The position numbers were made by a program, and so were the translations under genes. Shown here one piece after another: positions 1 to 15,479 of a stretch of DNA of 34,876 bases. Every line of letters begins with the position of its first letter. Positions within the stretch are counted from its first letter, which is position 1. Under the pieces are notes generated by a model. That model saw only the letters and a list, made by a program, of their open reading frames with translations, was not told the DNA's origin and made no database searches. The stretch is from the UHGV virus genome UHGV-0134942. The stretch is one strand, 5' to 3'. The stretch is from a virus.

Positions 1-193
1 CTCGTTGTGGAGAATAACAAAAATGGTCATCTGGAGCTTACAGGTGGCCATTCGTGGGACAGTATCCCTGACAGCCTACAAAACGCAATTGAAGAACGCG
101 AGGCATCGTCTTAACGAGGCACCGAGGAGTCGCATTCTTCAGATGGTTCAACCCTTAAGTTAGCGCTTATGGGATCTCTCCCCGCCAGGTCTC

Positions 194-349
194 TTACCTT
201 TCAGATTCGTAGGCTGTGAAGACAGTGACCTCCGTCTGGCCGGTTCGGATTCGTACCTCGCAGAGGTCTTTCCTCGTTACCAGTGCCGTCACAATGACGG
301 TTAAACAGATGACGATCAGAGCGATTAATATCGCTTTTTGCTGCTTCAT
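194..349 (-). CDS. hok: Hok/Gef-family type I toxin (51 aa), not in the supplied ORF track because it is under 60 aa
   Basis: Manual minus-strand translation gives MKQQKAILIALIVICLTVIVTALVTRKDLCEVRIRTGQTEVTVFTAYESER, which matches the Hok/Gef family (single TM helix, conserved RKDLCEV and TEVxVFTAYES motifs). AAGGAG Shine-Dalgarno lies 9 nt upstream of the ATG at 349. Confidence 0.8.
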   Translation of the reverse strand: MKQQKAILIALIVICLTVIVTALVTRKDLCEVRIRTGQTEVTVFTAYESER

Positions 350-407
350 AGCCTGCTTCTCCTTGACCTTTTGGTCGGTAAGAGGCTAATCTACGTATGC
401 TAAGCAT
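201..407 (-). CDS. Mok-like overlapping reading frame (modulator of killing) covering hok in another frame
   Basis: 68-aa ORF from the track overlaps the hok CDS out of frame and ends 7 nt downstream of the hok stop, as in hok/mok/sok loci. GAGG lies about 8 nt upstream of its ATG. The protein sequence itself is not diagnostic. Confidence 0.35.
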   Translation of the reverse strand: MLSIRRLASYRPKGQGEAGYEAAKSDINRSDRHLFNRHCDGTGNEERPLRGTNPNRPDGGHCLHSLRI

Positions 408-530
408 AGATATTGCCTCAGATTAATGTTAAGCGTCTTGCAGGACGCGTAATGTTATCTGGGGCTTTCTTCTATCTGCTTTTCGGGTAATGCCTGAAGC
501 AGATAGCCTCAAGCACCCGCAACGATTGTA

Positions 531-776
531 TCAATGTCTGGCTTTTTTTCTATAGAAATCACCTGGAAGGGTGAATATCCACATCAGAAGAAATGTTGCA
601 GCAAACATGATCCCTAATGGCCAGACCGCGCCAAAGAAAATCCATACTAAGATCTCCTCTGCTTGTTCTTTGCGGTCGATATCGACAAGCATTTTTCGGC
701 TGATCATGTATACACAGAAGCCAATACAAACATATCCTGCAAAAGCGATCGCTAACTGTAAAAAATCAGATTGCAT
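531..776 (-). CDS. Small two-helix membrane protein (81 aa), function unknown
   Basis: Track ORF 531..857; the internal ATG at 776 has a GAGG Shine-Dalgarno 7-10 nt upstream and avoids overlap with the upstream gene's 3' end. Two hydrophobic stretches (LAIAFAGYVCIGFCVYMI and ILVWIFFGAVWPLGIMFAATFLLMWIF). Confidence 0.4.
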   Translation of the reverse strand: MQSDFLQLAIAFAGYVCIGFCVYMISRKMLVDIDRKEQAEEILVWIFFGAVWPLGIMFAATFLLMWIFTLPGDFYRKKARH

Positions 777-826
777 CTCCGACCTCAAACTGAAAACGCC
801 AGGTGACTCCAGATTAGAGCAATCTA

Positions 827-1672
827 TCACCCTCTGAATCCTGCCGGTATACCCCATTGTTCGTTATCTTTATTTTTGGCTAAAACCGCATTAAGAGCTT
901 CGTTTACCGTCATGCAATGCGGCAGATTATCGAAGTTTGATATCCCGCCAATATCAGGAGAACGCTTGTCCTTCAGGTAAGCATGTTTCCGCGCTGCCGC
1001 CTCTACTTTCTGCTTGAACTCATGTTTTTGAGCGCGTTTTTTGGATAACCGCAGATTGTCAGCCTTTGCTTTTGCCTCAGCGATCCATGAAGTCAATTTT
1101 TTGAGTCTGGTCGTTCCGGCACCGCCGGAAACTGATCTTTTTGTTTTTTTAACTTGTGACTTCTTATTCTTTATTGCCACGTCATCCTGACAGGGGGAGG
1201 GGGTATCATTTTGACATGGGGGTGTGGATAAAAAATTAAATAAAGCCAATGTCTTAGCGAGAACAGCTTTAACCTTGGTTGCCGCTGAAGAGATCTTTAA
1301 TTTGCTTTCAATCAGCGCATTTTTGGCTTGTTGTGCGAAGGCCAAAAAGGATGGTGTAAACCGGTACAGGTTAGCGCGACGTTCACGGTGATCGCCGATA
1401 ACAATCTCTACAGACAGAATTCCTTTGTTTACAGCTTCACGGAATGCACGAACGACGGTTGATTGGCTATAACCAGTTTCTGCCGCGATCAGGCGGTGAG
1501 GCTTGTGAATGAAGTATTCACTGGTTGTTGCCGCGAGATTTGCACATTGCGACAGGATATGCCCGGCGCTACGGGATAGACCGGAGTGTGTTACAAAGCA
1601 GGCCAATTCATAGCCAGAAAAAGTAAAATCGCTCATCGTTATACAGCTCAGGAAAGTGACTTTAGCCAGCAT
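827..1672 (-). CDS. repL: RepL-like lytic replication initiator with helix-turn-helix (281 aa)
   Basis: Track ORF; HTH-like segment IAAETGYSQSTVVRAFREAVNKGILS. Sits directly downstream of the KilA-N gene, as in the P1 kilA-repL lytic replicon. Name is by synteny and size from memory, not a search. Confidence 0.6.
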   Translation of the reverse strand: MLAKVTFLSCITMSDFTFSGYELACFVTHSGLSRSAGHILSQCANLAATTSEYFIHKPHRLIAAETGYSQSTVVRAFREAVNKGILSVEIVIGDHRERRANLYRFTPSFLAFAQQAKNALIESKLKISSAATKVKAVLAKTLALFNFLSTPPCQNDTPSPCQDDVAIKNKKSQVKKTKRSVSGGAGTTRLKKLTSWIAEAKAKADNLRLSKKRAQKHEFKQKVEAAARKHAYLKDKRSPDIGGISNFDNLPHCMTVNEALNAVLAKNKDNEQWGIPAGFRG

Positions 1673-1701
1673 TACAATGCTGGTGGTTCTTACTACGTCT
1701 G

Positions 1702-2502
1702 TTAGCGCGTCGCCGCGACAGGCACCAGCACACCAGCATCAAGCAATCGCTTCATAAGCCACTGCTGACCTTTGCCGGTTATACGAGTCGTGAAAGAAAT
1801 CCTGCTTCCATTGCTTGTATCGATCACGGTTTCTTTAAGGGTGAAATACCTACGGGATATGTATTCTTGTTTGGGGACGTTCCTGCGTTCACCGGTTGCG
1901 ATCAGAATTCCGTTATCACGCAACCAGGTGAAGAGATAGTTTTGGCCCAGGCCGAGCACTTTGGCATAGTTGCCGATTAGAACCCCGCTGGCGGTAGCAA
2001 CGCGTTCGGCGAATTCGACTTTAGGTGCATCCATAAGCATTTTTTGCTCCAGCCGTTGCTTTTGCTCTGCCAGGTCGGCAGCCAAACGGAGAGCTTCAGG
2101 GAGACTCTGCGGAATAGCAGGTTGTAATCTTCCAGCTCGATAGTCGATAAATGTCTGGTTTACCTTCAGCCGAAACGCGGGAGAAATCCAGCCTGCGTAC
2201 TCCACAGCGAGCAATTCATGGGCAAAAGTGCCGCCGCCACGGCCTTCGAACGAAACTATGCAATTCTGCATAGTTTCTTTTTCAAGCTCTTCGATGAGCT
2301 GTTTAGCTGACAGCGTTCTTAGCCATTGAGCTGGCGCTTTATGGGCACCGAGTCCGCTCGCTCTGTGTAGAGCATTAAGGTTGTAACGGCCAGCGCGGTC
2401 GGTCGTAATTTCAACACCACAAATAACGGGCAGAGTGGTTGAAGGATCGACATTTTGATGAAGGTTTGATATATTCATATCCGCATTGAATGTTTGTTGC
2501 AT
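1702..2502 (-). CDS. kilA: KilA-like protein: N-terminal KilA-N-type domain plus C-terminal antirepressor (KilA-C/Ant) domain (266 aa)
   Basis: Track ORF; GGAG Shine-Dalgarno 7 nt before the ATG at 2502. C-terminal half is clearly paralogous to the C-terminus of the next gene (shared PEALRLAA-LAEQK, APKV-FA-RV, LIGN-AKV-GL, W-NGIL, YF..KE, TGKGQQWL motifs). Confidence 0.7.
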   Translation of the reverse strand: MQQTFNADMNISNLHQNVDPSTTLPVICGVEITTDRAGRYNLNALHRASGLGAHKAPAQWLRTLSAKQLIEELEKETMQNCIVSFEGRGGGTFAHELLAVEYAGWISPAFRLKVNQTFIDYRAGRLQPAIPQSLPEALRLAADLAEQKQRLEQKMLMDAPKVEFAERVATASGVLIGNYAKVLGLGQNYLFTWLRDNGILIATGERRNVPKQEYISRRYFTLKETVIDTSNGSRISFTTRITGKGQQWLMKRLLDAGVLVPVAATR

Positions 2503-2571
2503 TTTTTCTCCAAATTTGCATCAACCTTCAATCACCAGCTCGAAATGGTGATTCTTTGCACTTAGAAAACG

Positions 2572-2588
2572 AAATTTATTAGAGCAAA
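2572..2588 (-). promoter_or_regulatory. C1-repressor operator-like 17-mer in the ant/kilA intergenic region (P53-like position)
   Basis: Minus strand reads TTTGCTCTAATAAATTT, 16/17 identical to the P1 C1 operator consensus ATTGCTCTAATAAATTT as recalled from memory; located about 70 nt upstream of the kilA start. Confidence 0.5.
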
Positions 2589-2665
2589 TTTTTCTGACTC
2601 GATCCAGATCGGGTTGGACGATCTGCTCAGAAACCTGCCAGTTTGCTGGCAGGTTTTTTCTTTTG

Positions 2666-3331
2666 TTAACCTATTGCTACTGGTTTTAACAAACCAGCAT
2701 CAAGTAGCTTGCGAGTTAACCACTGCTGGCCTTTACCCGTTAATTGGGGCGTCAGCCGTATCTGGTAGCCATTTTCATCATCCAGCACCACTTCTTTCAC
2801 CGTGAAATACCCGGCGTTGATGTACTGTTGGCGCGGTACGTTTTTGCGCGCACCAAAAGCCATGAGAATGCCGTTCTGGCGCAACCATGAGAAAAGGGCG
2901 TTTTGCTTAAGTCCAACGACCTTTGCAAAGTTCCCGATCAGGATTCCATTAGCCGCTGATACCCGGTCGGCAAAATCGACTTTAGGGGCTGCGGCCACCA
3001 GCTGTTGTTCCAACTGCATTTTCTGTTCTGCTAACTCGGCAGCCAGGCGTAGAGCTTCTGGTAATGTTTGGGGGATCGATGGGGCAGGGGAGTTTGCCTG
3101 CTGTAATTCTTCCAGTTTGTCGATCAGCGAACGGCGGACCGCTTTTGACTCGCGCGCGGCAACTCGCAGGGCTTGTTTGTAGGTCATGGTTATAATATCT
3201 ATTTCTGCGCCGTTTTTTTGACCTACGAAAATTTCGTAGGTTTCTCCTTCAAGCTCATCCTTAACTCTGGCAATGAAATCATTGTTGCGAACTGGTTTTT
3301 CGCTACATAATTTCCGTGCCTCATTGACCAT
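2666..3331 (-). CDS. ant: Antirepressor (Ant-like, KilA-C-type C-terminal domain); frame runs open upstream to the IS1 boundary, so likely a 5'-truncated ant1 / Ant2-like remnant
   Basis: Track ORF 2666..3340; first ATG at 3331 (MVNEARKL...). Manual translation shows the same frame has no stop from 3332 to 3433, the base adjacent to IS1. C-terminal domain is paralogous to the kilA product. Confidence 0.6.
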   Translation of the reverse strand: MVNEARKLCSEKPVRNNDFIARVKDELEGETYEIFVGQKNGAEIDIITMTYKQALRVAARESKAVRRSLIDKLEELQQANSPAPSIPQTLPEALRLAAELAEQKMQLEQQLVAAAPKVDFADRVSAANGILIGNFAKVVGLKQNALFSWLRQNGILMAFGARKNVPRQQYINAGYFTVKEVVLDDENGYQIRLTPQLTGKGQQWLTRKLLDAGLLKPVAIG

Positions 3332-3488
3332 CTTCAACAATGTTTGGCTGTCGATTGTGTCTCCGGTGTTGGGGATGACATTCAGGGCTGGTGCTGGCGT
3401 AGCTGAAGCAACAGGTGCTGGTTTTTCAACATTGGTGATGCTGCCAACTTACTGATTTAGTGTATGATGGTGTTTTTGAGGTGCTCCA

Positions 3489-3764
3489 GTGGCTTCTGTT
3501 TCTATCAGCTGTCCCTCCTGTTCAGCTACTGACGGGGTGGTGCGTAACGGCAAAAGCACTGCCGGACATCAGCGCTATCTCTGCTCTCACTGCCGTAAAA
3601 CATGGCAACTGCAGTTCACTTACACCGCTTCTCAACCCGGTACGCACCAGAAAATCATTGATATGGCCATGAATGGCGTTGGATGCCGGGCAACCGCCCG
3701 CATTATGGGCGTTGGCCTCAACACGATTTTCCGCCATTTAAAAAACTCAGGCCGCAGTCGGTAA
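3489..3764 (+). CDS. insA: IS1 InsA (91 aa)
   Basis: Protein [43 protein letters not shown]... is the canonical IS1 InsA. Confidence 0.95.
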
Positions 3765-4186
3765 CCTCGCGCATACAGCCGGGCAGTGACGTCATCGTCT
3801 GCGCGGAAATGGACGAACAGTGGGGCTACGTCGGTGCTAAATCACGTCAGCGCTGGCTGTTTTACGCGTATGACAGGATACGGAGGACAGTTGTGGCGCA
3901 CGTTTTCGGTGAACGCACTCTGGCCACACTGGAGCGTCTTCTGAGCCTGCTGTCGGCCTTTGAGGTCGTGGTATGGATGACGGATGGCTGGCCGCTGTAT
4001 GAATCACGCCTGAAGGGAAAGCTGCACGTTATCAGCAAGCGTTACACTCAGCGCATTGAGCGACATAATCTGAATCTGAGACAACATCTGGCAAGGCTGG
4101 GACGGAAGTCGCTGTCGTTCTCAAAATCGGTGGAGCTGCATGACAAGGTCATCGGGCATTATCTGAACATAAAACACTATCAGTAA
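3683..4186 (+). CDS. insB: IS1 InsB reading frame (B'); the InsAB' transposase is made by a -1 frameshift from insA
   Basis: 167-aa ORF with the canonical IS1 InsB sequence (…[54 protein letters not shown]…). Confidence 0.9.
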
Positions 4187-4203
4187 GTTGGAGTCACTAC
4201 CTT

Positions 4204-5394
4204 GGATCTGAAGGTAAGGCAAATCTCGATAAGTTGGCTCCGTATTTTGCTGAACTAGAGAATAAATATGGTCTTCCAGAAGGCACTCTTTACGCGATTG
4301 CTGCAACTGAATCTGGTGGTAATCCGTATGCAAAATCCCAAACCGGTGCTCTGGGAATGTTTCAGTTCACGGGGATTGCTCGTGAAGAGACTGGCTTAGC
4401 TGAAGGTGAATCGTTTGATCCTGTGAAATCGGCAGAAGCTGCGGCTCTTCTCATGAGCAAGTATCTGAAGCAAGCCAATGGAGACTTAAACGAGGCCATC
4501 ACTGCATATAACGCTGGGTTTGGCACTATCAATAAGTGGAAAAAAGGCACAGGTGACTTATCGAAAGAAAACCGTGAGTACGCGATCAAGGTCAATACTC
4601 ATCGTGCTCGCTATTTAGGTGGTGAAATCTATACACCTGGAGCAGGAGCACAGGGTGGGGCGCAATATGGAGTGAGGGGACCACTGCCTGATAACGCTGT
4701 TATCGATCAGTCTACTGGCCTGGCGTTTACCCCTAGTGATAGCCCGTTTGAGAAAGGCGGTCTGGTAGACAAAATCGGCAATGCTGTTGGCGTTAACGAT
4801 CTGGTCAACAAATTCATGAATGGCCGGGGTATGCGTCGGGAAGTCGTTCAGGGAACGCTCGAAGAACGTGCACGAGGGAAGGGGACCGCAACAGCAGCTG
4901 GCAATGTGTATGTTGATACTCCGATGCCAGTTGAAGAGGCGCGTCCGGTGACCAGCAACTCAAGTTACTTTGACCAACTCGGCGCACAAATGGGGATTGA
5001 TGGACTATTCGATAAACTCCGCAACTCGCCGGGGATGCGGAAAAATAATGCGCCTGAACCAGCCTCCACGTCCCAGGTGACGACTGCCGCCAACGATTTG
5101 CAGCAACCAACCGGTCGTATGCAGATAGACGGACAGGTTATTAGTGACCTTGGTGGTTCCGGTGCCAAGCCGACAATGCAGTTGGCTGATAATACCGTTT
5201 CACTTGATGGTGAAACGAAGCGGCTGTTTGCGCAGATGACCTCATTACTTGCCAGGATTGAAGAGCACACCAAAGACTCGGCGAAAGGCCAGGGAACTGT
5301 CGTAAAGGTCAGCACGCCTCAGCCGGGCGTTATGCGCACGGTACCACTGTCAATTGATGATCCGTTGATGAATGACTACGCGAGAGTTGATTGA
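4204..5394 (+). pseudogene. sit: 5'-truncated sit-like structural injection transglycosylase (C-terminal about 396 codons, lytic transglycosylase domain)
   Basis: Reading frame is open from the first in-frame codon after IS1 (4204); the track only finds a TTG start at 4234. SLT-domain motifs ATESGGNPYAKSQTGALGMFQF and AYNAG are present. Followed by pmgA/bplA-like genes as in P1. Confidence 0.65.
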
Positions 5395-11500: not shown

Positions 11501-12560
11501 ACTCAATGTTACTGGCGGCATCAATGGTAGTTTGAACGGTAATGCTGCAACTGCTACAAAACTTCAGACTGCAAGAAAAATATCCGGTGTTCCATTTGAT
11601 GGTTCTACTGATATCACTTTAACCGCCGCGCATGTGGCTGCTTTTGCCAGAAGGGCAACGGATACATATGCCGATGCGGATGGTGGCGTTCCCTGGAATG
11701 CCGAATCAGGCGCTTACAATGTCACCCGCTCTGGCGACAGCTATATTCTGGTTAACTTCTATACCGGAGTCGGAAGTTGCCGGACATTGCAGATGAAGGC
11801 GCATTACAGAAATGGTGGTCTGTTCTACCGTTCTTCAAGAGACGGTTATGGTTTTGAAGAAGACTGGGCAGAAGTTTATACCTCGAAAAATCTTCCACCA
11901 GAAAGCTACCCAGTCGGCGCACCAATCCCGTGGCCATCAGATACCGTTCCGTCTGGTTATGCCCTGATGCAGGGGCAGACTTTTGACAAATCTGCTTACC
12001 CGAAACTTGCAGCCGCTTATCCGTCAGGCGTGATCCCTGATATGCGTGGCTGGACGATTAAGGGCAAACCTGCCAGTGGTCGTGCCGTATTGTCTCAGGA
12101 ACAGGACGGCATTAAATCGCACACCCACAGCGCCAGCGCATCCAGTACGGATTTGGGGACGAAAACCACATCGTCGTTTGATTACGGTACTAAACCAACG
12201 AATAACACAGGTGCACATACCCACAATGTATCTGGTACTGCAAATAGTGCTGGCGCACATACTCATACCGTTCCATTAAGGAGACCAAACAGTGGAGGTA
12301 TGAATTTCGACTGGCTTGATGGTTCATCAAGTGGCACGGTCGTGGGGAATGGAACAGTGCCTTCTTCTGGTGCACACACCCACTCAGTATCAGGCACTGC
12401 TGCAAGTGCAGGGGCGCATGCACATACAGTTGGTATTGGCGCTCATACGCACTCTGTTGCGATTGGTTCACATGGACATACCATCACCGTTAATGCTGCT
12501 GGTAACGCGGAAAACACCGTTAAAAACATCGCATTTAATTATATTGTGAGGCTTGCATAA
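8541..12560 (+). CDS. S: Tail fibre protein (1339 aa) with internal tandem repeats and a His-rich C-terminal tip
   Basis: Track ORF 8454..12560; the likely start is the ATG at 8541 ([15 protein letters not shown] Shine-Dalgarno upstream, just after the R stop). Two ~74-aa repeats ([26 protein letters not shown]…), at least five copies of a ~40-aa unit ([40 protein letters not shown]), and C-terminal GAHTH/HxH repeats. Confidence 0.85.
9300..9760 (+). repeat. Two ~222-bp in-frame tandem repeats inside the tail fibre gene (phage-fibre repeat)
   Basis: Protein repeats [63 protein letters not shown] and [63 protein letters not shown]. Confidence 0.7.
10006..10860 (+). repeat. Array of ~120-bp in-frame tandem repeats inside the tail fibre gene
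   Basis: Recurrent unit [10 protein letters not shown](Q/A/L)TART/NIxGVxFDGSANIxLPGVNxxGNQ(N/S)TT; a further copy lies near 11527-11625. Confidence 0.7.
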
Positions 12561-13177
12561 TGGCATTCAGAATGAGTGAACAATCACGTACAGTAAAAAT
12601 TTATAACCTGCTGGCCGGAACTAATGAGTTTATTGGTGAAGATGACGCATATATTCCACCTCATACAGGGCTGCCAGCTAATTCTACAGATATCGCCCCA
12701 CCGGAAATTCCTACTGGCTTTGTGGCAGTTTTCAACAGTGAAAATGAATCGTGGAATATTGTTGAAGACCATCGTGGTAAAACGGTCTATGAGGTGGCAT
12801 CGGGGGACGCGTTGTTTATTTCTGAACCCGGACCGCTACCAGAGAATGTCACCTGGTTGTCGCCAGCAGGGGAGTATCAGAAGTGGGACGGCGTATCCTG
12901 GGTGAAGGATGAGGAAGCAGAAAAACTGTTTCGGATACGGGAAGCGGAAGAGAAAAAGGCAAGGTTGATCCAGGAGGCAACAGATAACATCGCAATTCTG
13001 CAGGACGCAGTTAATCTTGAAATAGCAACAAACGAGGAAAATTCACAACTGGACTCCTGGAGAAAATACAGAGTATTAGTGAGTCGAATTGATACCAGTA
13101 CAGCTCCGGATATCGTATGGCCAGAGCTGATGAATCAGGGTTATGTGCGGGAGGACGAGCAGATAACTTCAGACTGA
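12560..13177 (+). CDS. U: Tail fibre assembly chaperone (Tfa/U-like, 205 aa)
   Basis: ATG overlaps the S stop (TAATG); size and position typical of tail fibre assembly proteins; conserved W-KYR-like C-terminal segment ([14 protein letters not shown]). Confidence 0.75.
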
Positions 13178-13704
13178 AATTTAGTGATGAATGTTGAATC
13201 ATCAGGAATATCATGCAATACCAATGCATGAGCACCTATTGTGACATTGTTTCCTATACGCACTTTGCCACCAAGAATGGTGGCATTACAACCAATGGTC
13301 ACATTATCTCCTATAACAATATCCATGTCATTAAATTCCCCGCGAAGTCCAATAGTTACTCCGGGCTTAATTGAACAATTTTCACCGATTGTGACTTTGT
13401 GAGCGATAACAACGCCATTGAGATAAGATATGTCAAACCCTTTCCCTATATTTACCGTTAAGGGAACGGTTACATTGTATTTGTCAAGAATGAAGCGTTC
13501 TATTTTCCCTGCAACCTTTCGCCTGTATCCGCCTTTATCAAAAAGATATTTTGATATGCGCCACCAAAATAAATAACGAACTCTTCTATGTTTTATTGCG
13601 CGAACAATTGCTTTTCGCCAAGAGAAAGGACGCTCGCTACCAATTACTTCATAGTGAATACAGTCTTTAAGTTCATTAATAGTCATATTTCTATTGTTCA
13701 GCAT
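13141..13704 (-). CDS. Hexapeptide-repeat (left-handed beta-helix) acetyltransferase, AT-rich; possible moron (187 aa)
   Basis: Imperfect hexapeptide repeats ([16 protein letters not shown]…[34 protein letters not shown]). Markedly lower GC than the flanking phage genes. Converges on U and overlaps its 3' end by 37 bp. Confidence 0.7.
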
Positions 13705-13769
13705 AATATAATAATGTGACCAATTATTATAATAACTTTAATGGATTATTTCTACTGATTATCCAGTGT

Positions 13770-14700
13770 GTCTGGCGGTTTTCGGTATTATCTGCCGGAA
13801 CCATGCCTCATCCAGCGGGTATTTGCTGCCTGGGTTGTCCGGTTTTTCGGTCACTCCCTCAGGCCTCCGATTCTGGTCACGGCGGGTTTGTTATTTTCCA
13901 GTGCGTCGGATGACCACTGCCGCAACTTCTGCACCATTTTTTGGGAGCGGGATTTCACTCCTACGCAACCTGCGCTTTTTGTGCAGCCTGTTTTGCGTGC
14001 TATCCCGGATTTTTGAGTTTCATTCTGCCTCCATGATCCTATCAGGGACGACACCAATCCACTTAAGCACGATGCCAAGACCATCAAGGAGCTGCGTCAG
14101 AGGCCCAGCACAATGTTCTGCTTGATCGGCATAGGGGGGAGCACAAGGGCTGCGCCCCTGCCACACCACCCGGCATGCGGGTCCGTACCGGGCTTCCTCG
14201 GCTTCTGACGCAATGTCCTGTCAAGAGTCATATCTTCTGGCTTTCCTTCTCGTTCGGCCCTTCGTCGGAGTCCTGACTACTACGGCCTCTGCTGACTTCT
14301 CGCTCCGTCTTACGACGTTGCCCTTTCAGGCATGAGGCGAGAACTCCCCAGGTAAGAACGCGATCCTTCCCCGCACAACCGTCGGATCTGCGCGACTTCG
14401 ACTTGACCACGAAAGCTTCGCAGTGATGTGCCTGCTCGCCTTGCTCCATCGCGCCTCATATCCGATTCTCGTTCATCGGCTCACGGGTTCATTCCGTGCT
14501 TCCTCCCCACGCCCGGTCGCCCTCACGCAGTTGCACTTCATTTCGCTCGCTGTGGTCAGCTCGCGGGAGGGCTTTCACCTCCAAGATCGCGCCCATGCTG
14601 GGCGCACACATCCTCCACGCTCTAAAGGACGTGGAGGATGTCAAGCAACATGACCGGTTGAGAAGTTACTTTGCATACCATTACCTCCTGACAACGTAGG
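13770..14700. other. ~0.9 kb GC-rich, strand-skewed block (pyrimidine-rich on +) without a convincing ORF; candidate structured RNA, long leader or decayed gene
   Basis: All six frames give only short overlapping Pro/Ser/Arg-rich ORFs of 60-120 aa. Contains perfect hairpins at 14589-14605, 14609-14640 and 14684-14703. Lies where P1 carries cin and the invertible C-segment. Confidence 0.4.
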
Positions 14701-14703
14701 AGG
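14684..14703 (+). promoter_or_regulatory. Hairpin pairing the lydA Shine-Dalgarno (AGGAGG) with an upstream CCUCCU
   Basis: CCTCCT(14684-14689), 8-nt loop, AGGAGG(14698-14703); GTG start of the holin-like gene at 14710. Confidence 0.4.
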
Positions 14704-14709
14704 GAACTT

Positions 14710-15039
14710 GTGCTTGACACACAGGAATTAGCTCCAGTTGCTATTGCGCTCCTGCTTTCAGTAATTGGTGGGATAGGCACGTTCCTGATGGATGTCCGAG
14801 ATGGTCGCCAGTCTGGCAATTTGTTGGGATTGGTTACGGAGATCTTTGTTGCAGTGACAGCTGGCGCGGTGGCGTACCTATTGGGGCAACACGAGGGCTG
14901 GGAGTTATCAATTACGTACTTAATGGTAACGATAGCCAGCAATAACGGTCATGAGGTGATTTCAGGGATGAAACGAGTGAATATCGATAGCATTCTGAAT
15001 GTTCTTACAAGTTTGGTGAAAAAGGGAGGTGGGAAATGA
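14710..15039 (+). CDS. lydA: Holin-like membrane protein (109 aa)
   Basis: GTG start with AGGAGG Shine-Dalgarno; hydrophobic helices (LAPVAIALLLSVIGGIGTFLM and EIFVAVTAGAVAYLLG); first gene of the hdf-darA operon, as P1 lydA. Name by synteny. Confidence 0.55.
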   Translation: MLDTQELAPVAIALLLSVIGGIGTFLMDVRDGRQSGNLLGLVTEIFVAVTAGAVAYLLGQHEGWELSITYLMVTIASNNGHEVISGMKRVNIDSILNVLTSLVKKGGGK

Positions 15040-15479
15040 TTGGCTGGGGTGTATGCGTTCTTGCGTTAGCCTTAGCCGATCGCTATTTGCTAAAACGCAA
15101 GGACATCACGCATTTAGAACTTGGTGATGTGGAAGTTAAACAGGGCTTCATCCGGGTGCCGTTCAAATACCGGTCTAAATTCCCGTTTTTGCGCGGCGCA
15201 ACGGTCAGATATTGGATCCGCGATGTTCAGAAGCCAACGACAGTGATTGAAGGCGAACAACGTTGTCTGACGTCGGCTGAACAGGGCGAAAACAGTGAAT
15301 GGTTGTACATACCCACTGAATATATGGGTAAAGGAGAACGGCTGTGGCATTTCAACGTCATGGTTACGCATGGTGACTCGTTCATTAACCCGTTGTATCG
15401 GATTTTCCCTGTTACTCAGCAAATCCGCAGAAGTTACGTAATAAATCTCGCACAGGATGTGTCAGATGACGAAAAATAA
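15036..15479 (+). CDS. lydB: LydB-like lysis regulator (antiholin-like, 147 aa)
   Basis: ATGA overlap with lydA; N-terminal hydrophobic segment. Name by synteny. Confidence 0.5.
   Translation: MIGWGVCVLALALADRYLLKRKDITHLELGDVEVKQGFIRVPFKYRSKFPFLRGATVRYWIRDVQKPTTVIEGEQRCLTSAEQGENSEWLYIPTEYMGKGERLWHFNVMVTHGDSFINPLYRIFPVTQQIRRSYVINLAQDVSDDEK

What the first reader, a model, noticed from the sequence alone, without database searches (positions are those of the whole stretch)
150..520. hok/mok/sok-type toxin locus next to the repL-like gene, invisible to the 60-aa ORF cutoff
A 51-aa Hok/Gef-family toxin (194..349, minus) with a strong Shine-Dalgarno is overlapped out of frame by a 68-aa mok-like ORF, the arrangement of hok/sok type I toxin-antitoxin loci. 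The Sok antisense RNA should be encoded on the plus strand around the mok start (roughly 360-470), but I could not pin down its promoter confidently. P1 itself is not known to me to carry hok (it uses phd/doc), so this may be extra addiction cargo.
Basis: partly seen in the sequence, partly recalled or inferred. Interest (0 to 1): 0.5.

Follow-up and report, generated by a model that had tools for sequence, protein, structure and literature searches.

The report
IS186-interrupted hok/mok/sok toxin–antitoxin locus
This is a real but ordinary hok/sok toxin–antitoxin module on a P1-like plasmid prophage, already annotated in public records, and an IS186 insertion just after the toxin gene has cut off the RNA elements it needs to work as a plasmid-addiction system.

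Summary
ORF 194..349(-) is a Hok/Gef toxin (Pfam 76 bits, E 1e-21). It is overlapped out of frame by a 68-aa mok ORF, 201..407(-). The Rfam hok/sok leader model matches 344..518(-) end to end (114 bits, cut-off 59). Promoter, tac element, mok and hok Shine-Dalgarno sites and a Sok gene (about 399..474, +) are all in place.

The locus belongs to the hokW/hokD subfamily of lambdoid prophages. Public P1-like plasmid records annotate it as hokD or MokW. Canonical P1 has rlfA-rlfB-pmgF at this position instead.

It sits 22 nt after the hok stop codon, inside the loop of the GC-rich terminal hairpin, exactly as IS186A sits behind hokC in E. coli K-12. The insertion splits that hairpin and moves the fold-back (fbi) element about 1.3 kb away, off the window. 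Predicted 5'-3' end pairing falls from 0.99 to 0.06 or less.

Among 421 plasmid records with this hok allele, 225 are intact, 162 carry the IS as here, and 34 carry it in the opposite orientation at the same site.

Inference: the toxin is still encoded and still Sok-controlled, but the module is probably disarmed for post-segregational killing. A known kind; low interest.

The parts
1..171 (+). Right end of an IS186/IS421 (IS4-family) insertion sequence. The window starts inside the element. The transposase gene ends just before window position 1.
   Evidence: Window 1..4203 is 99.98% identical to CP057381.1. There the complete 1339-bp element (L001 4734..6072) is 99.85% identical to K-12 IS186A and is annotated as an IS421-family transposase.
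149..171 (+). 23-bp terminal inverted repeat of the IS (caacccttaagttagcgcttatg).
   Evidence: The two ends of the element in L001 match over 23 of 23 bases. The sequence is read.
172..181 (.). hok-proximal copy of the 10-bp target-site duplication GGATCTCTCC.
   Evidence: The same 10 bp flank the other IS end in L001 (4724..4733). The IS-free allele in MH422554 has a single copy inside gtggcggggatctctccccaccagg.
172..193 (-). The 22-nt remnant of the hok 3' UTR. It holds one arm (GGCGGGG on the mRNA) of the terminal GC-rich stem-loop. The other arm, the fbi element and the terminator lie beyond the IS and outside the window.
   Evidence: Alignment with IS-free relatives. The local fold weakens from -22.7 to -12.3 kcal/mol.
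194..349 (-). hok toxin gene, 51 aa (hokW/hokD subfamily).
   Evidence: Pfam HOK_GEF E 1.3e-21. PHROG 251 E 1.9e-31. The product differs by a few residues from HokW of phage 933W.
201..407 (-). mok leader reading frame, 68 aa, out of frame with hok.
   Evidence: ORF list. It is co-linear with the annotated mokW of 933W and mok of Rac. It has no protein-family hit, which is expected.
359..364 (-). hok Shine-Dalgarno sequence AAGGAG, 9 nt before the AUG. It overlaps the Sok -35 box on the other strand.
   Evidence: Sequence. Invariant among relatives.
363..392 (+). Predicted Sok promoter: -35 TTGACC (363..368), 18-nt spacer, -10 TAATCT (387..392).
   Evidence: Placed by position homology with the promoter upstream of the annotated sokC of K-12 and conserved among relatives. 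The simple consensus scan did not call it because only 3 of 6 bases of the -10 box match.
399..474 (+). Predicted Sok antisense RNA: a single-stranded 5' tail complementary to the mok start region, a long hairpin and a U-rich tail. The ends are inferred, give or take a few nt.
   Evidence: Fold -30.1 kcal/mol, z -5.3, 0 of 200 shuffles as good. It corresponds to the annotated sokW of 933W and sokC of K-12. It is the complement of part of the Rfam hit.
416..419 (-). mok Shine-Dalgarno sequence GAGG, 8 nt before the mok AUG (405..407).
   Evidence: Sequence. Invariant among relatives.
344..518 (-). hok mRNA 5' leader, from +1 to the hok start codon, with the tac element at 507..518.
   Evidence: Rfam RF01794 full-length match, 114.3 bits. 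GGGTGCTTGAGGC is invariant in seven relatives.
525..552 (-). Predicted hok/mok promoter: -35 TAGAAA (547..552), 16-nt spacer, TG-extended -10 TACAAT (525..530). The inferred +1 is at 518.
   Evidence: Promoter scan. The -10 box is at a conserved position in relatives.

Best explanation
Window 172..552 is a hok/mok/sok type I toxin-antitoxin module of the hokW/hokD subfamily. It is carried as variable cargo between repL and bplB of a P1-like phage-plasmid.

Shown by sequence: every 5' part of the module is intact. These are the hok/mok promoter, the tac element at the mRNA 5' end, mok with its Shine-Dalgarno site, the hok open reading frame, and a convergent Sok gene whose 5' tail is complementary to the mok start region.

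Also shown by sequence: an IS186/IS421 element is inserted 22 nt after the hok stop codon, in the loop of the GC-rich stem-loop GGCGGGG-N6-CCCCGCC, with a 10-bp target duplication. In the intact allele that stem-loop is followed by the fbi element (CCUCAAUGCACCC), which pairs with tac, and then by a terminator shared with bplB. In the window both are displaced by 1.3 kb and the stem-loop is split.

Inferred from the plasmid R1 model: the transcript now runs into IS186, antisense to the transposase gene. It cannot form the inert, long-lived tac/fbi-closed full-length form. It also cannot be trimmed to a truncated mRNA protected by the terminal stem-loop. There is therefore no stable reservoir of toxin mRNA to outlast Sok. 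The module is probably silent and defective for post-segregational killing, while Hok stays intact and under Sok control. This is the same state as hokC(gef)/sokC behind IS186A in E. coli K-12.

The hairpin is a recurrent IS186 target, so this is a common allele rather than a singular event.
For: Identity of the module:
- Rfam sok model, 114.3 bits, E 1.6e-25, full length.
- Pfam HOK_GEF 76 bits and PHROG 251.
- 88-92% nucleotide identity to the annotated hokW/mokW/sokW of 933W and hok/mok of Rac.
- Sok fold z -5.3.

The insertion:
- The junction sequences and the 10-bp duplication are seen in the relative with the complete IS. The empty site is seen in MH422554.
- The IS is 99.85% identical to IS186A and has 23-bp inverted repeats.

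Consequence for the RNA:
- In the intact allele, nt 1-12 pair with nt 373-385 in the minimum-energy fold, with ensemble probability 0.99.
- In the IS allele the probability of tac pairing beyond nt 300 is 0.00-0.06 for 3' ends 50 to 400 nt into the IS. No substitute partner appears for ten tested 3' ends.
- The terminal hairpin weakens from -22.7 to -12.3 kcal/mol.
- The hairpin and fbi are conserved in 933W, Rac, HannyBb, 640R1 and pPE4.

Parallel in K-12:
- IS186A lies in the same hairpin loop of hokC, with duplication GGATCACTCC, also exactly 22 nt from the stop codon and in the same relative orientation.
- IS186B lies behind hokE in the other orientation.

Recurrence:
- PLSDB holds 225 intact junctions, 162 junctions as in the window and 34 in the opposite orientation at the same nucleotide. 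Together these are the 421 records that hold the allele.
- Opposite-orientation junctions match at 100% identity over 120 nt.

Literature:
- The tac/fbi closed form, 3' processing and Sok/RNase III model are described in PMC9841398.
- In that study 19 of 22 loss-of-function substitutions in the R1 hok 3' UTR break the terminal stem, and the truncated mRNA disappears.
- IS186 behind gef/hokC is thought to disrupt fbi and normal processing, while transcription and antisense control persist (PMC3562002).
- hokA, hokC and hokE of K-12 are regarded as inactivated by nearby IS elements (PMC6733600, citing Pedersen and Gerdes 1999).
Against: - No expression or killing data exist for this allele. The loss of function is extrapolated from plasmid R1 and from K-12 hokC.
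- Thermodynamic folding did not show a clear change in predicted accessibility of the mok Shine-Dalgarno site or the Sok target between alleles. Only the loss of end pairing and of the terminal hairpin is predicted directly.
- The hok reading frame is intact in IS-bearing plasmids, which annotation pipelines still call hokD. There is thus no sign of decay after the insertion.
- A strong terminator-like hairpin on the hok strand lies about 570 nt inside the IS. It could give a defined and possibly stable 3' end.
- The window itself shows only the right IS end. The complete element and the displaced fbi are seen in a 99.98%-identical relative, not in the window.
Confidence: 0.8

Rival explanations
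1. The module is still a working addiction system despite the IS. The transcript ends at a terminator inside IS186, is stable enough, and Hok is made once Sok decays after plasmid loss.
For: - All 5' elements and the toxin reading frame are intact.
- There is a terminator-like hairpin with a T-run on the hok strand inside the IS.
- K-12 gef behind IS186 is still transcribed and still regulated by its antisense RNA (PMC3562002).
- 196 of 421 plasmids keep the interrupted allele with an intact ORF.
Against: - Without fbi the mRNA should bind Sok and be cleaved at once, so no reservoir of toxin mRNA accumulates (model).
- Single base changes that weaken the terminal stem already abolish toxicity in R1, and here the stem is split.
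- No replacement partner for tac is predicted within the IS.
- The IS-linked chromosomal loci are regarded as inactive.
Confidence: 0.15
2. The interrupted locus is kept for a role other than addiction. One option is as a Sok producer that neutralises closely related hok loci of resident prophages (anti-addiction). Another is as a stress or phage-triggered toxin.
For: - The Sok gene and its promoter are untouched.
- The 25 nt around the mok start, which the Sok 5' tail recognises, are the only hypervariable part of an otherwise about 90% conserved locus. The window's version differs from that of a Rac-type prophage at only about 3 positions.
- The interrupted alleles are frequent.
Against: - This is purely circumstantial. 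The frequency is equally explained by an IS186 hot spot plus neutral hitch-hiking.
- No data show cross-reaction between Sok variants. The R1 study reports no cross-talk with chromosomal Sok RNAs.
Confidence: 0.05

Closest known systems
hokW/mokW/sokW of Shiga-toxin phage 933W, and the hok/mok loci of Rac-type and other lambdoid prophages (hokD/relF subfamily)
   Same: - 88-92% nucleotide identity from the mRNA 5' end to 18-22 nt past the stop codon.
- Same ORF arrangement, the same 16-nt insertion in the Sok hairpin relative to the Rfam consensus, and the same tac sequence.
- The Hok proteins differ at only a few residues.
   Different: - Those loci keep the terminal stem-loop, fbi (CCUCAACGCACCC) and a terminator directly after hok. 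The window has IS186 there.
- The 25 nt at the mok start and Sok tail differ.
- The host replicon is a P1-like plasmid prophage, not an integrated lambdoid prophage.
hokC(gef)/mokC/sokC with IS186A in E. coli K-12 MG1655
   Same: - IS186 sits in the loop of the same GGCGGGG-N6-CCCCGCC hairpin, 22 nt after the stop codon.
- The 10-bp duplication is at the same position (GGATCACTCC against GGATCTCTCC).
- The relative orientation is the same, and fbi is left on the far side of the IS.
- The IS copies are 99.85% identical.
   Different: - It is a different hok paralogue. The HokC protein and the leader differ from the window's.
- The location is chromosomal.
- The different duplication sequence and flanks show it was an independent insertion event.
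hok/mok/sok (parB) of plasmid R1, the experimental paradigm
   Same: The same parts list and the same leader RNA architecture, as scored by the Rfam covariance model. The mechanism is described in PMC9841398.
   Different: R1 hok/sok is intact and proven to mediate post-segregational killing. The window's locus lacks a contiguous terminal stem-loop and fbi. The sequences are too diverged for megablast. I did not align R1 directly.
IS-free allele of the same locus in P1-like phage-plasmids (e.g. MH422554 'Punavirus P1', phage phi456)
   Same: 99.2-99.7% identical over window 171/172..560, with the same neighbours repL and bplB.
   Different: There is no IS. hok is followed directly by the hairpin, fbi and the bidirectional terminator shared with bplB. 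The predicted tac/fbi pairing probability is 0.99.

Membership tests
[quoted passage not shown] | Small hydrophobic Hok/Gef toxin | tested here: met
   Pfam PF01848, 76.3 bits against a cut-off of 22, E 1.3e-21. PHROG 251, E 1.9e-31. NCBIfam Hok models match below their cut-offs.
[quoted passage not shown] | An overlapping mok leader frame that starts upstream of hok and has its own Shine-Dalgarno site | tested here: met
   ORF 201..407(-) with GAGG 8 nt upstream. It is co-linear with the annotated mokW and mok.
[quoted passage not shown] | Conserved structured 5' leader of the hok mRNA (tac stem, Sok-target region, ucb) | tested here: met
   Rfam RF01794, model positions 1-157 of 157, 114.3 bits against a gathering score of 59.
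[quoted passage not shown] | A cis-encoded Sok antisense gene opposite the mok translation start | tested here: met
   Positional homology with the annotated sokW and sokC. Tail-plus-hairpin-plus-U-tail fold, z -5.3. The promoter was placed by homology only; the consensus scan did not call it.
[quoted passage not shown] | Sok is transcribed and short-lived; the hok mRNA is long-lived | not testable with these tools
   Needs Northern blots or RNA-seq with rifampicin chase.
[quoted passage not shown] | An fbi element at the mRNA 3' end that pairs with tac | tested here: not met
   It is absent from the window. In the nearest relative it lies beyond the 1339-bp IS. The probability of tac pairing beyond nt 300 is 0.06 or less, against 0.99 in the IS-free allele.
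[quoted passage not shown] | A GC-rich terminal stem-loop directly after hok, which forms the 3' end of the processed, active mRNA | tested here: not met
   It is split by the IS in its loop. Only one arm remains (172..193). The local fold is -12.3 against -22.7 kcal/mol.
[quoted passage not shown] | Post-segregational killing or toxicity on expression | not testable with these tools
   Needs stabilisation and killing assays.
IS186/IS421 (IS4 family) | Sequence identity to IS186 and 23-bp terminal inverted repeats | tested here: met
   The element in the 99.98%-identical relative is 99.85% identical to K-12 IS186A over 1339 bp, with inverted repeats matching 23 of 23. The window holds only its last 171 bp.
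IS186/IS421 (IS4 family) | A target-site duplication, and insertion into a G-run/spacer/C-run target | tested here: met
   10-bp duplication GGATCTCTCC within GGGG-ATCTCT-CCCC. The same kind of site is used at hokC. The published consensus target is known to me from SaiSree et al. 2001; I saw only the title, in the reference list of PMC3045373, and the paper was not readable here.
P1-like phage-plasmid (Punavirus, IncY) backbone | P1 lytic replicon repL/kilA and P1 morphogenesis genes flanking the locus | tested here: met
   repL is 98.4% identical to P1 NC_005856. The neighbours in relatives are kilA, repL and bplB, with IncY typing. P1 itself has rlfA-rlfB-pmgF in place of the hok segment.

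The most novel reading that the evidence does not exclude
Interruption of this hok/sok module by IS186 is not just neutral hot-spot damage. On this reading it is a recurrently selected way of disarming a costly addiction module on P1-like phage-plasmids, or of turning it into a Sok-only 'antidote' locus against related prophage hok genes. That would explain why 47% of plasmid alleles (196 of 421) carry the IS at the identical nucleotide, in two orientations, while the Hok reading frame and the Sok gene stay intact.
Probability: 0.1. Interest if true: 0.45.

Novelty: already known. Interest (0 to 1): 0.15.

Why it matters
It matters mainly for annotation. Automatic pipelines label this gene as a HokD type I toxin. 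The RNA elements that make hok/sok work lie outside the ORF, and here they are severed.

About half of the P1-like plasmids in PLSDB with this locus have the same lesion. Counts of 'functional TA systems' on these clinically relevant phage-plasmids, some of which carry mcr-1 or other resistance genes, are therefore probably inflated.

Biologically it extends the observation made for the E. coli K-12 chromosome, where IS186 sits behind hok genes, to a mobile phage-plasmid lineage. It also shows at least two independent hits at one nucleotide position.

Tried and rejected
1. I first took the window to be CP057381.1 10451-45326 because window 100-560 matched it at 100%. A direct comparison showed that only window 1..4203 is co-linear. 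The window lacks about 7 kb next to an IS1, lacks an IS100, and differs beyond 21647. No co-linear record was found in PLSDB. That plasmid is therefore used only as the nearest relative for the IS and its far flank.

2. I looked for a substitute fbi inside the IS. By eye, CCUCGGUGCC at about 117..128 looked possible. Folding with ten different 3' ends never paired it with tac, so I rejected it.

3. I tried to show the effect of the IS on the accessibility of the mok Shine-Dalgarno site, the Sok target and the hok Shine-Dalgarno site from partition functions. The differences were small and inconsistent, so this is not used as evidence.

4. The consensus promoter scan did not find the Sok promoter. 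It was placed by homology instead.

5. Protein-family searches for Mok gave nothing. This is expected, because it is the translation of mok that matters, not its product.

6. The paper defining the IS186 target consensus could not be opened.

7. I did not use the large protein-homology, structure-prediction or metagenome tools, because identity was settled without them.

Full report
**1. What is in the sequence**

The minus strand of window 194..349 encodes a 51-aa protein, MKQQKAILIALIVICLTVIVTALVTRKDLCEVRIRTGQTEVTVFTAYESER. A 68-aa ORF at 201..407 overlaps it out of frame.

- The 51-aa protein matches Pfam HOK_GEF at 76.3 bits against a cut-off of 22, E 1.3e-21.
- It also matches PHROG 251 'MokW-like host killing' at E 1.9e-31.
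- A scan of the whole window against Rfam puts family RF01794 ('sok') at 344..518 on the minus strand. The hit covers model positions 1-157 of 157 and scores 114.3 bits against a gathering score of 59, E 1.6e-25.

The Rfam model is written in the sense of the hok mRNA. Its first bases are the mRNA 5' end (GGGUGCUUGAGG, the tac element) and its last bases are the hok AUG. The hit therefore marks the complete hok leader, and Sok is the complement of its middle part. None of this is a chance ORF pattern.

**2. Anatomy of the 5' half**

The 5' half looks intact.

- The hok/mok promoter is a TG-extended -10 box TACAAT (525..530) with -35 TAGAAA (547..552). It is the best promoter-like site in the region and puts +1 at 518.
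- mok starts at 407, with GAGG 8 nt upstream (416..419).
- hok has AAGGAG 9 nt upstream (359..364).
- On the plus strand, TTGACC (363..368) and TAATCT (387..392) lie exactly where the promoter of the annotated sokC lies in E. coli K-12. The simple scan misses this promoter because the -10 box is weak.
- The RNA predicted from about 399 to 474 folds into a free 5' tail, one long hairpin and a U-rich tail. The energy is -30.1 kcal/mol, z -5.3, and 0 of 200 shuffles fold as well. It corresponds to the annotated sokW of phage 933W.

In an alignment with six relatives almost every column is conserved. The exception is about 25 nt around the mok start, which is the part recognised by the Sok 5' tail. 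A small hairpin in front of the hok Shine-Dalgarno site also changes through paired substitutions, GACC/GGUC against UGCC/GGCA.

**3. What kind of hok locus it is, and where it sits**

- The nearest named relatives are lambdoid-prophage loci. Rac hok/mok is 91.7% identical and 933W hokW/mokW/sokW is 88% identical.
- The same locus, at 99.2-99.7% identity, is present in P1-like phages and phage-plasmids such as phi456 and 'Punavirus P1' MH422554. It lies there between repL and bplB and is annotated MokW.
- In PLSDB, 421 plasmid records hold at least 80% of window 100..560. Most are annotated 'type I toxin-antitoxin system toxin HokD'.
- Canonical P1 shares repL (98.4% identity, homology ending at window 813) but has rlfA, rlfB and pmgF in this position.

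The hok segment (172..812, including an 81-aa ORF of unknown function) is lineage-specific cargo. Hok genes in phages and large plasmids have been catalogued at scale (bioRxiv 10.1101/2025.08.07.668861).

**4.

Homology to IS-free relatives stops at window 171/172. Window 1..171 is the right end of an IS186/IS421 element.

- In CP057381.1, which is 99.98% identical to window 1..4203, the whole element is 1339 bp.
- That element is 99.85% identical to IS186A of K-12 and has 23-bp terminal inverted repeats. The right repeat is window 149..171.
- It is flanked by a 10-bp duplication, GGATCTCTCC. The hok-proximal copy is window 172..181.
- The empty site in MH422554 reads gtggcGGGGATCTCTCCCCaccagg.

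The IS therefore sits in the loop of the GC-rich stem-loop that follows hok, 22 nt after the stop codon.

On the mRNA of the intact allele, this stem-loop is followed by CCUCAAUGCACCC and then by a hairpin terminator shared with bplB. The stem-loop and the CCUCAAYGCACCC motif are conserved in 933W, Rac, HannyBb, 640R1 and pPE4.

**5. Consequence for the RNA**

| Property | IS-free allele | IS-bearing allele |
|---|---|---|
| Partner of mRNA nt 1-12 in the minimum-energy fold | nt 373-385 (tac/fbi end pairing) | a local 5' hairpin; no distant partner for ten tested 3' ends |
| Probability of tac pairing beyond nt 300 | 0.99 | 0.00-0.06 (3' ends 50, 200 and 400 nt into the IS) |
| Hairpin directly after hok | -22.7 kcal/mol | -12.3 kcal/mol |

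These results are computed. What follows is inference from the R1 system as summarised in PMC9841398.

- The closed full-length form is the inert, stable reservoir of toxin mRNA.
- Slow 3' trimming back to the terminal stem-loop produces the open form. That form either binds Sok and is cut by RNase III, or is translated once Sok has decayed.
- Substitutions that weaken the terminal stem make the truncated mRNA disappear and abolish toxicity. They account for 19 of the 22 loss-of-function hits in the 3' UTR.

With the stem split and fbi 1.3 kb away, the window's locus should lack both the reservoir and the protected active form. I therefore expect it to be defective for post-segregational killing, while still encoding Hok and still being repressed by Sok.

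The accessibility of the ribosome-binding sites did not differ clearly in my ensemble calculations. That step remains inference.

**6. The same lesion is known elsewhere**

- In K-12 MG1655, IS186A lies behind hokC in the loop of GGCGGGGATCACTCCCCGCC. The duplication is GGATCACTCC, the IS is again exactly 22 nt from the stop codon and in the same relative orientation, and the fbi-like GGGTGCGTTGAAG is left on the far side.
- IS186B lies behind hokE in the other orientation.
- The literature states that the IS186 behind gef/hokC is thought to disrupt fbi and normal processing, although the gene is still transcribed and controlled by its antisense RNA (PMC3562002).
- It also states that hokA, hokC and hokE of K-12 are inactivated by nearby IS elements (PMC6733600, citing Pedersen and Gerdes 1999).
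- From memory, IS186 prefers G-run/spacer/C-run targets (SaiSree et al. 2001). I saw only the title and the paper was not readable. The hok terminal hairpin fits that description.

**7. How common it is**

I used 120-nt queries centred on the insertion site. PLSDB contains:

| Allele at the insertion site | Records |
|---|---|
| Intact junction | 225 |
| IS in the window's orientation | 162 |
| IS in the opposite orientation, same nucleotide (synthetic junction query, 100% matches over 120 nt) | 34 |

These add up to the 421 records.

Among 5426 complete E. coli genomes, 1216 have a match of at least 80% coverage to the window's junction, and 1007 to the opposite one. These counts include chromosomal hok paralogues at 80-90% identity.

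At least two independent IS186 insertions have therefore hit this exact position in the P1-like hok locus. Whether the 162 copies are one inherited event or several was not resolved.

**8. Verdict**

The identification as hok/mok/sok is correct. The idea of functional extra addiction cargo is doubtful.

The locus is a member of a thoroughly studied family and is annotated in public records. Its peculiarity, IS186 in the terminal hairpin, repeats a lesion described for the K-12 chromosome in 1999. The modest additions here are the exact positional identity with hokC/IS186A, the two orientations, and an interrupted-allele frequency of about 47% in P1-like plasmids.

Interest is low. The practical lesson is that an intact hok ORF does not imply an intact hok/sok system.

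Noticed in passing
window 3434..4201, with the junction at about 4201-4205: A complete IS1 runs from GGTGATGCTGCCAACTTACTGAT to GTAAGTTGGAGTCACTACC. It abuts the 5' end of the ant/KilAC gene. Directly after it the window continues in the middle of the sit (transglycosylase) gene of relatives. About 7 kb present in CP057381.1 (icd, several tail and morphogenesis genes, the 5' part of sit) is therefore missing. This looks like an IS1-adjacent deletion that would make the P1-like prophage defective. No PLSDB record shares this structure.
   Followed up: partly
window 14257..14526 (-), within a GC-rich stretch at about 13850..14750: Rfam hits to group II intron domains: D1D4-3 at 96.9 bits and D1D4-1 at 46.8 bits. 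They lie in a 0.57-0.60 GC island of an otherwise roughly 0.45-0.50 GC region, between a serine acetyltransferase gene and the holin gene of relatives. There is no domain 5/6 hit and no large intron-encoded ORF nearby, so it is probably a 5' fragment of an intron. A search with 12300..15300 also hit 63 Sinorhizobium plasmid records.
   Followed up: partly
window 531..776 (-), with a possible longer form 531..857: An 81-aa (or 108-aa) ORF between repL and the hok promoter. Its stop codon lies just upstream of the hok promoter (547..552). It matches only PHROG 3772 (unknown function, E 3e-54), with no Pfam or NCBIfam hit. It looks hydrophobic and belongs to the same non-P1 segment (172..812) as hok.
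   Followed up: partly
window 394..418 (alignment A1, columns 168-192): Among hokW/hokD-type loci that are otherwise about 90% identical, the roughly 25 nt around the mok start codon are hypervariable. This is the region complementary to the Sok 5' tail. It is consistent with diversification of antisense specificity between co-resident hok/sok loci. The window's version is closest to that of a Rac-type prophage.
   Followed up: partly
L008 (PP818812.1, Actinobacillus phage vB_Apl-pPE4) 601..962: A phage recorded as infecting Actinobacillus pleuropneumoniae carries a hok/mok/sok locus 89% identical to this E. coli locus, with intact hairpin, fbi and terminator. That is unexpected for a Pasteurellaceae host and may point to an E. 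coli-type lambdoid phage or a host mis-assignment.
   Followed up: no
window 12903..13101 (+): A full-length but sub-threshold match to Rfam RF02111 (IS009 RNA): 75.9 bits against a gathering score of 117, E 2.6e-16.
   Followed up: no
L007 (ON470614.1, phage vB_EcoS-666R9) 601..949: A relative of the locus that appears decayed. It has indels near the 3' end of the hok frame, no recognisable fbi, and no hok annotation in the record. It is an example of true decay, in contrast to the IS-split but otherwise intact locus in the window.
   Followed up: no
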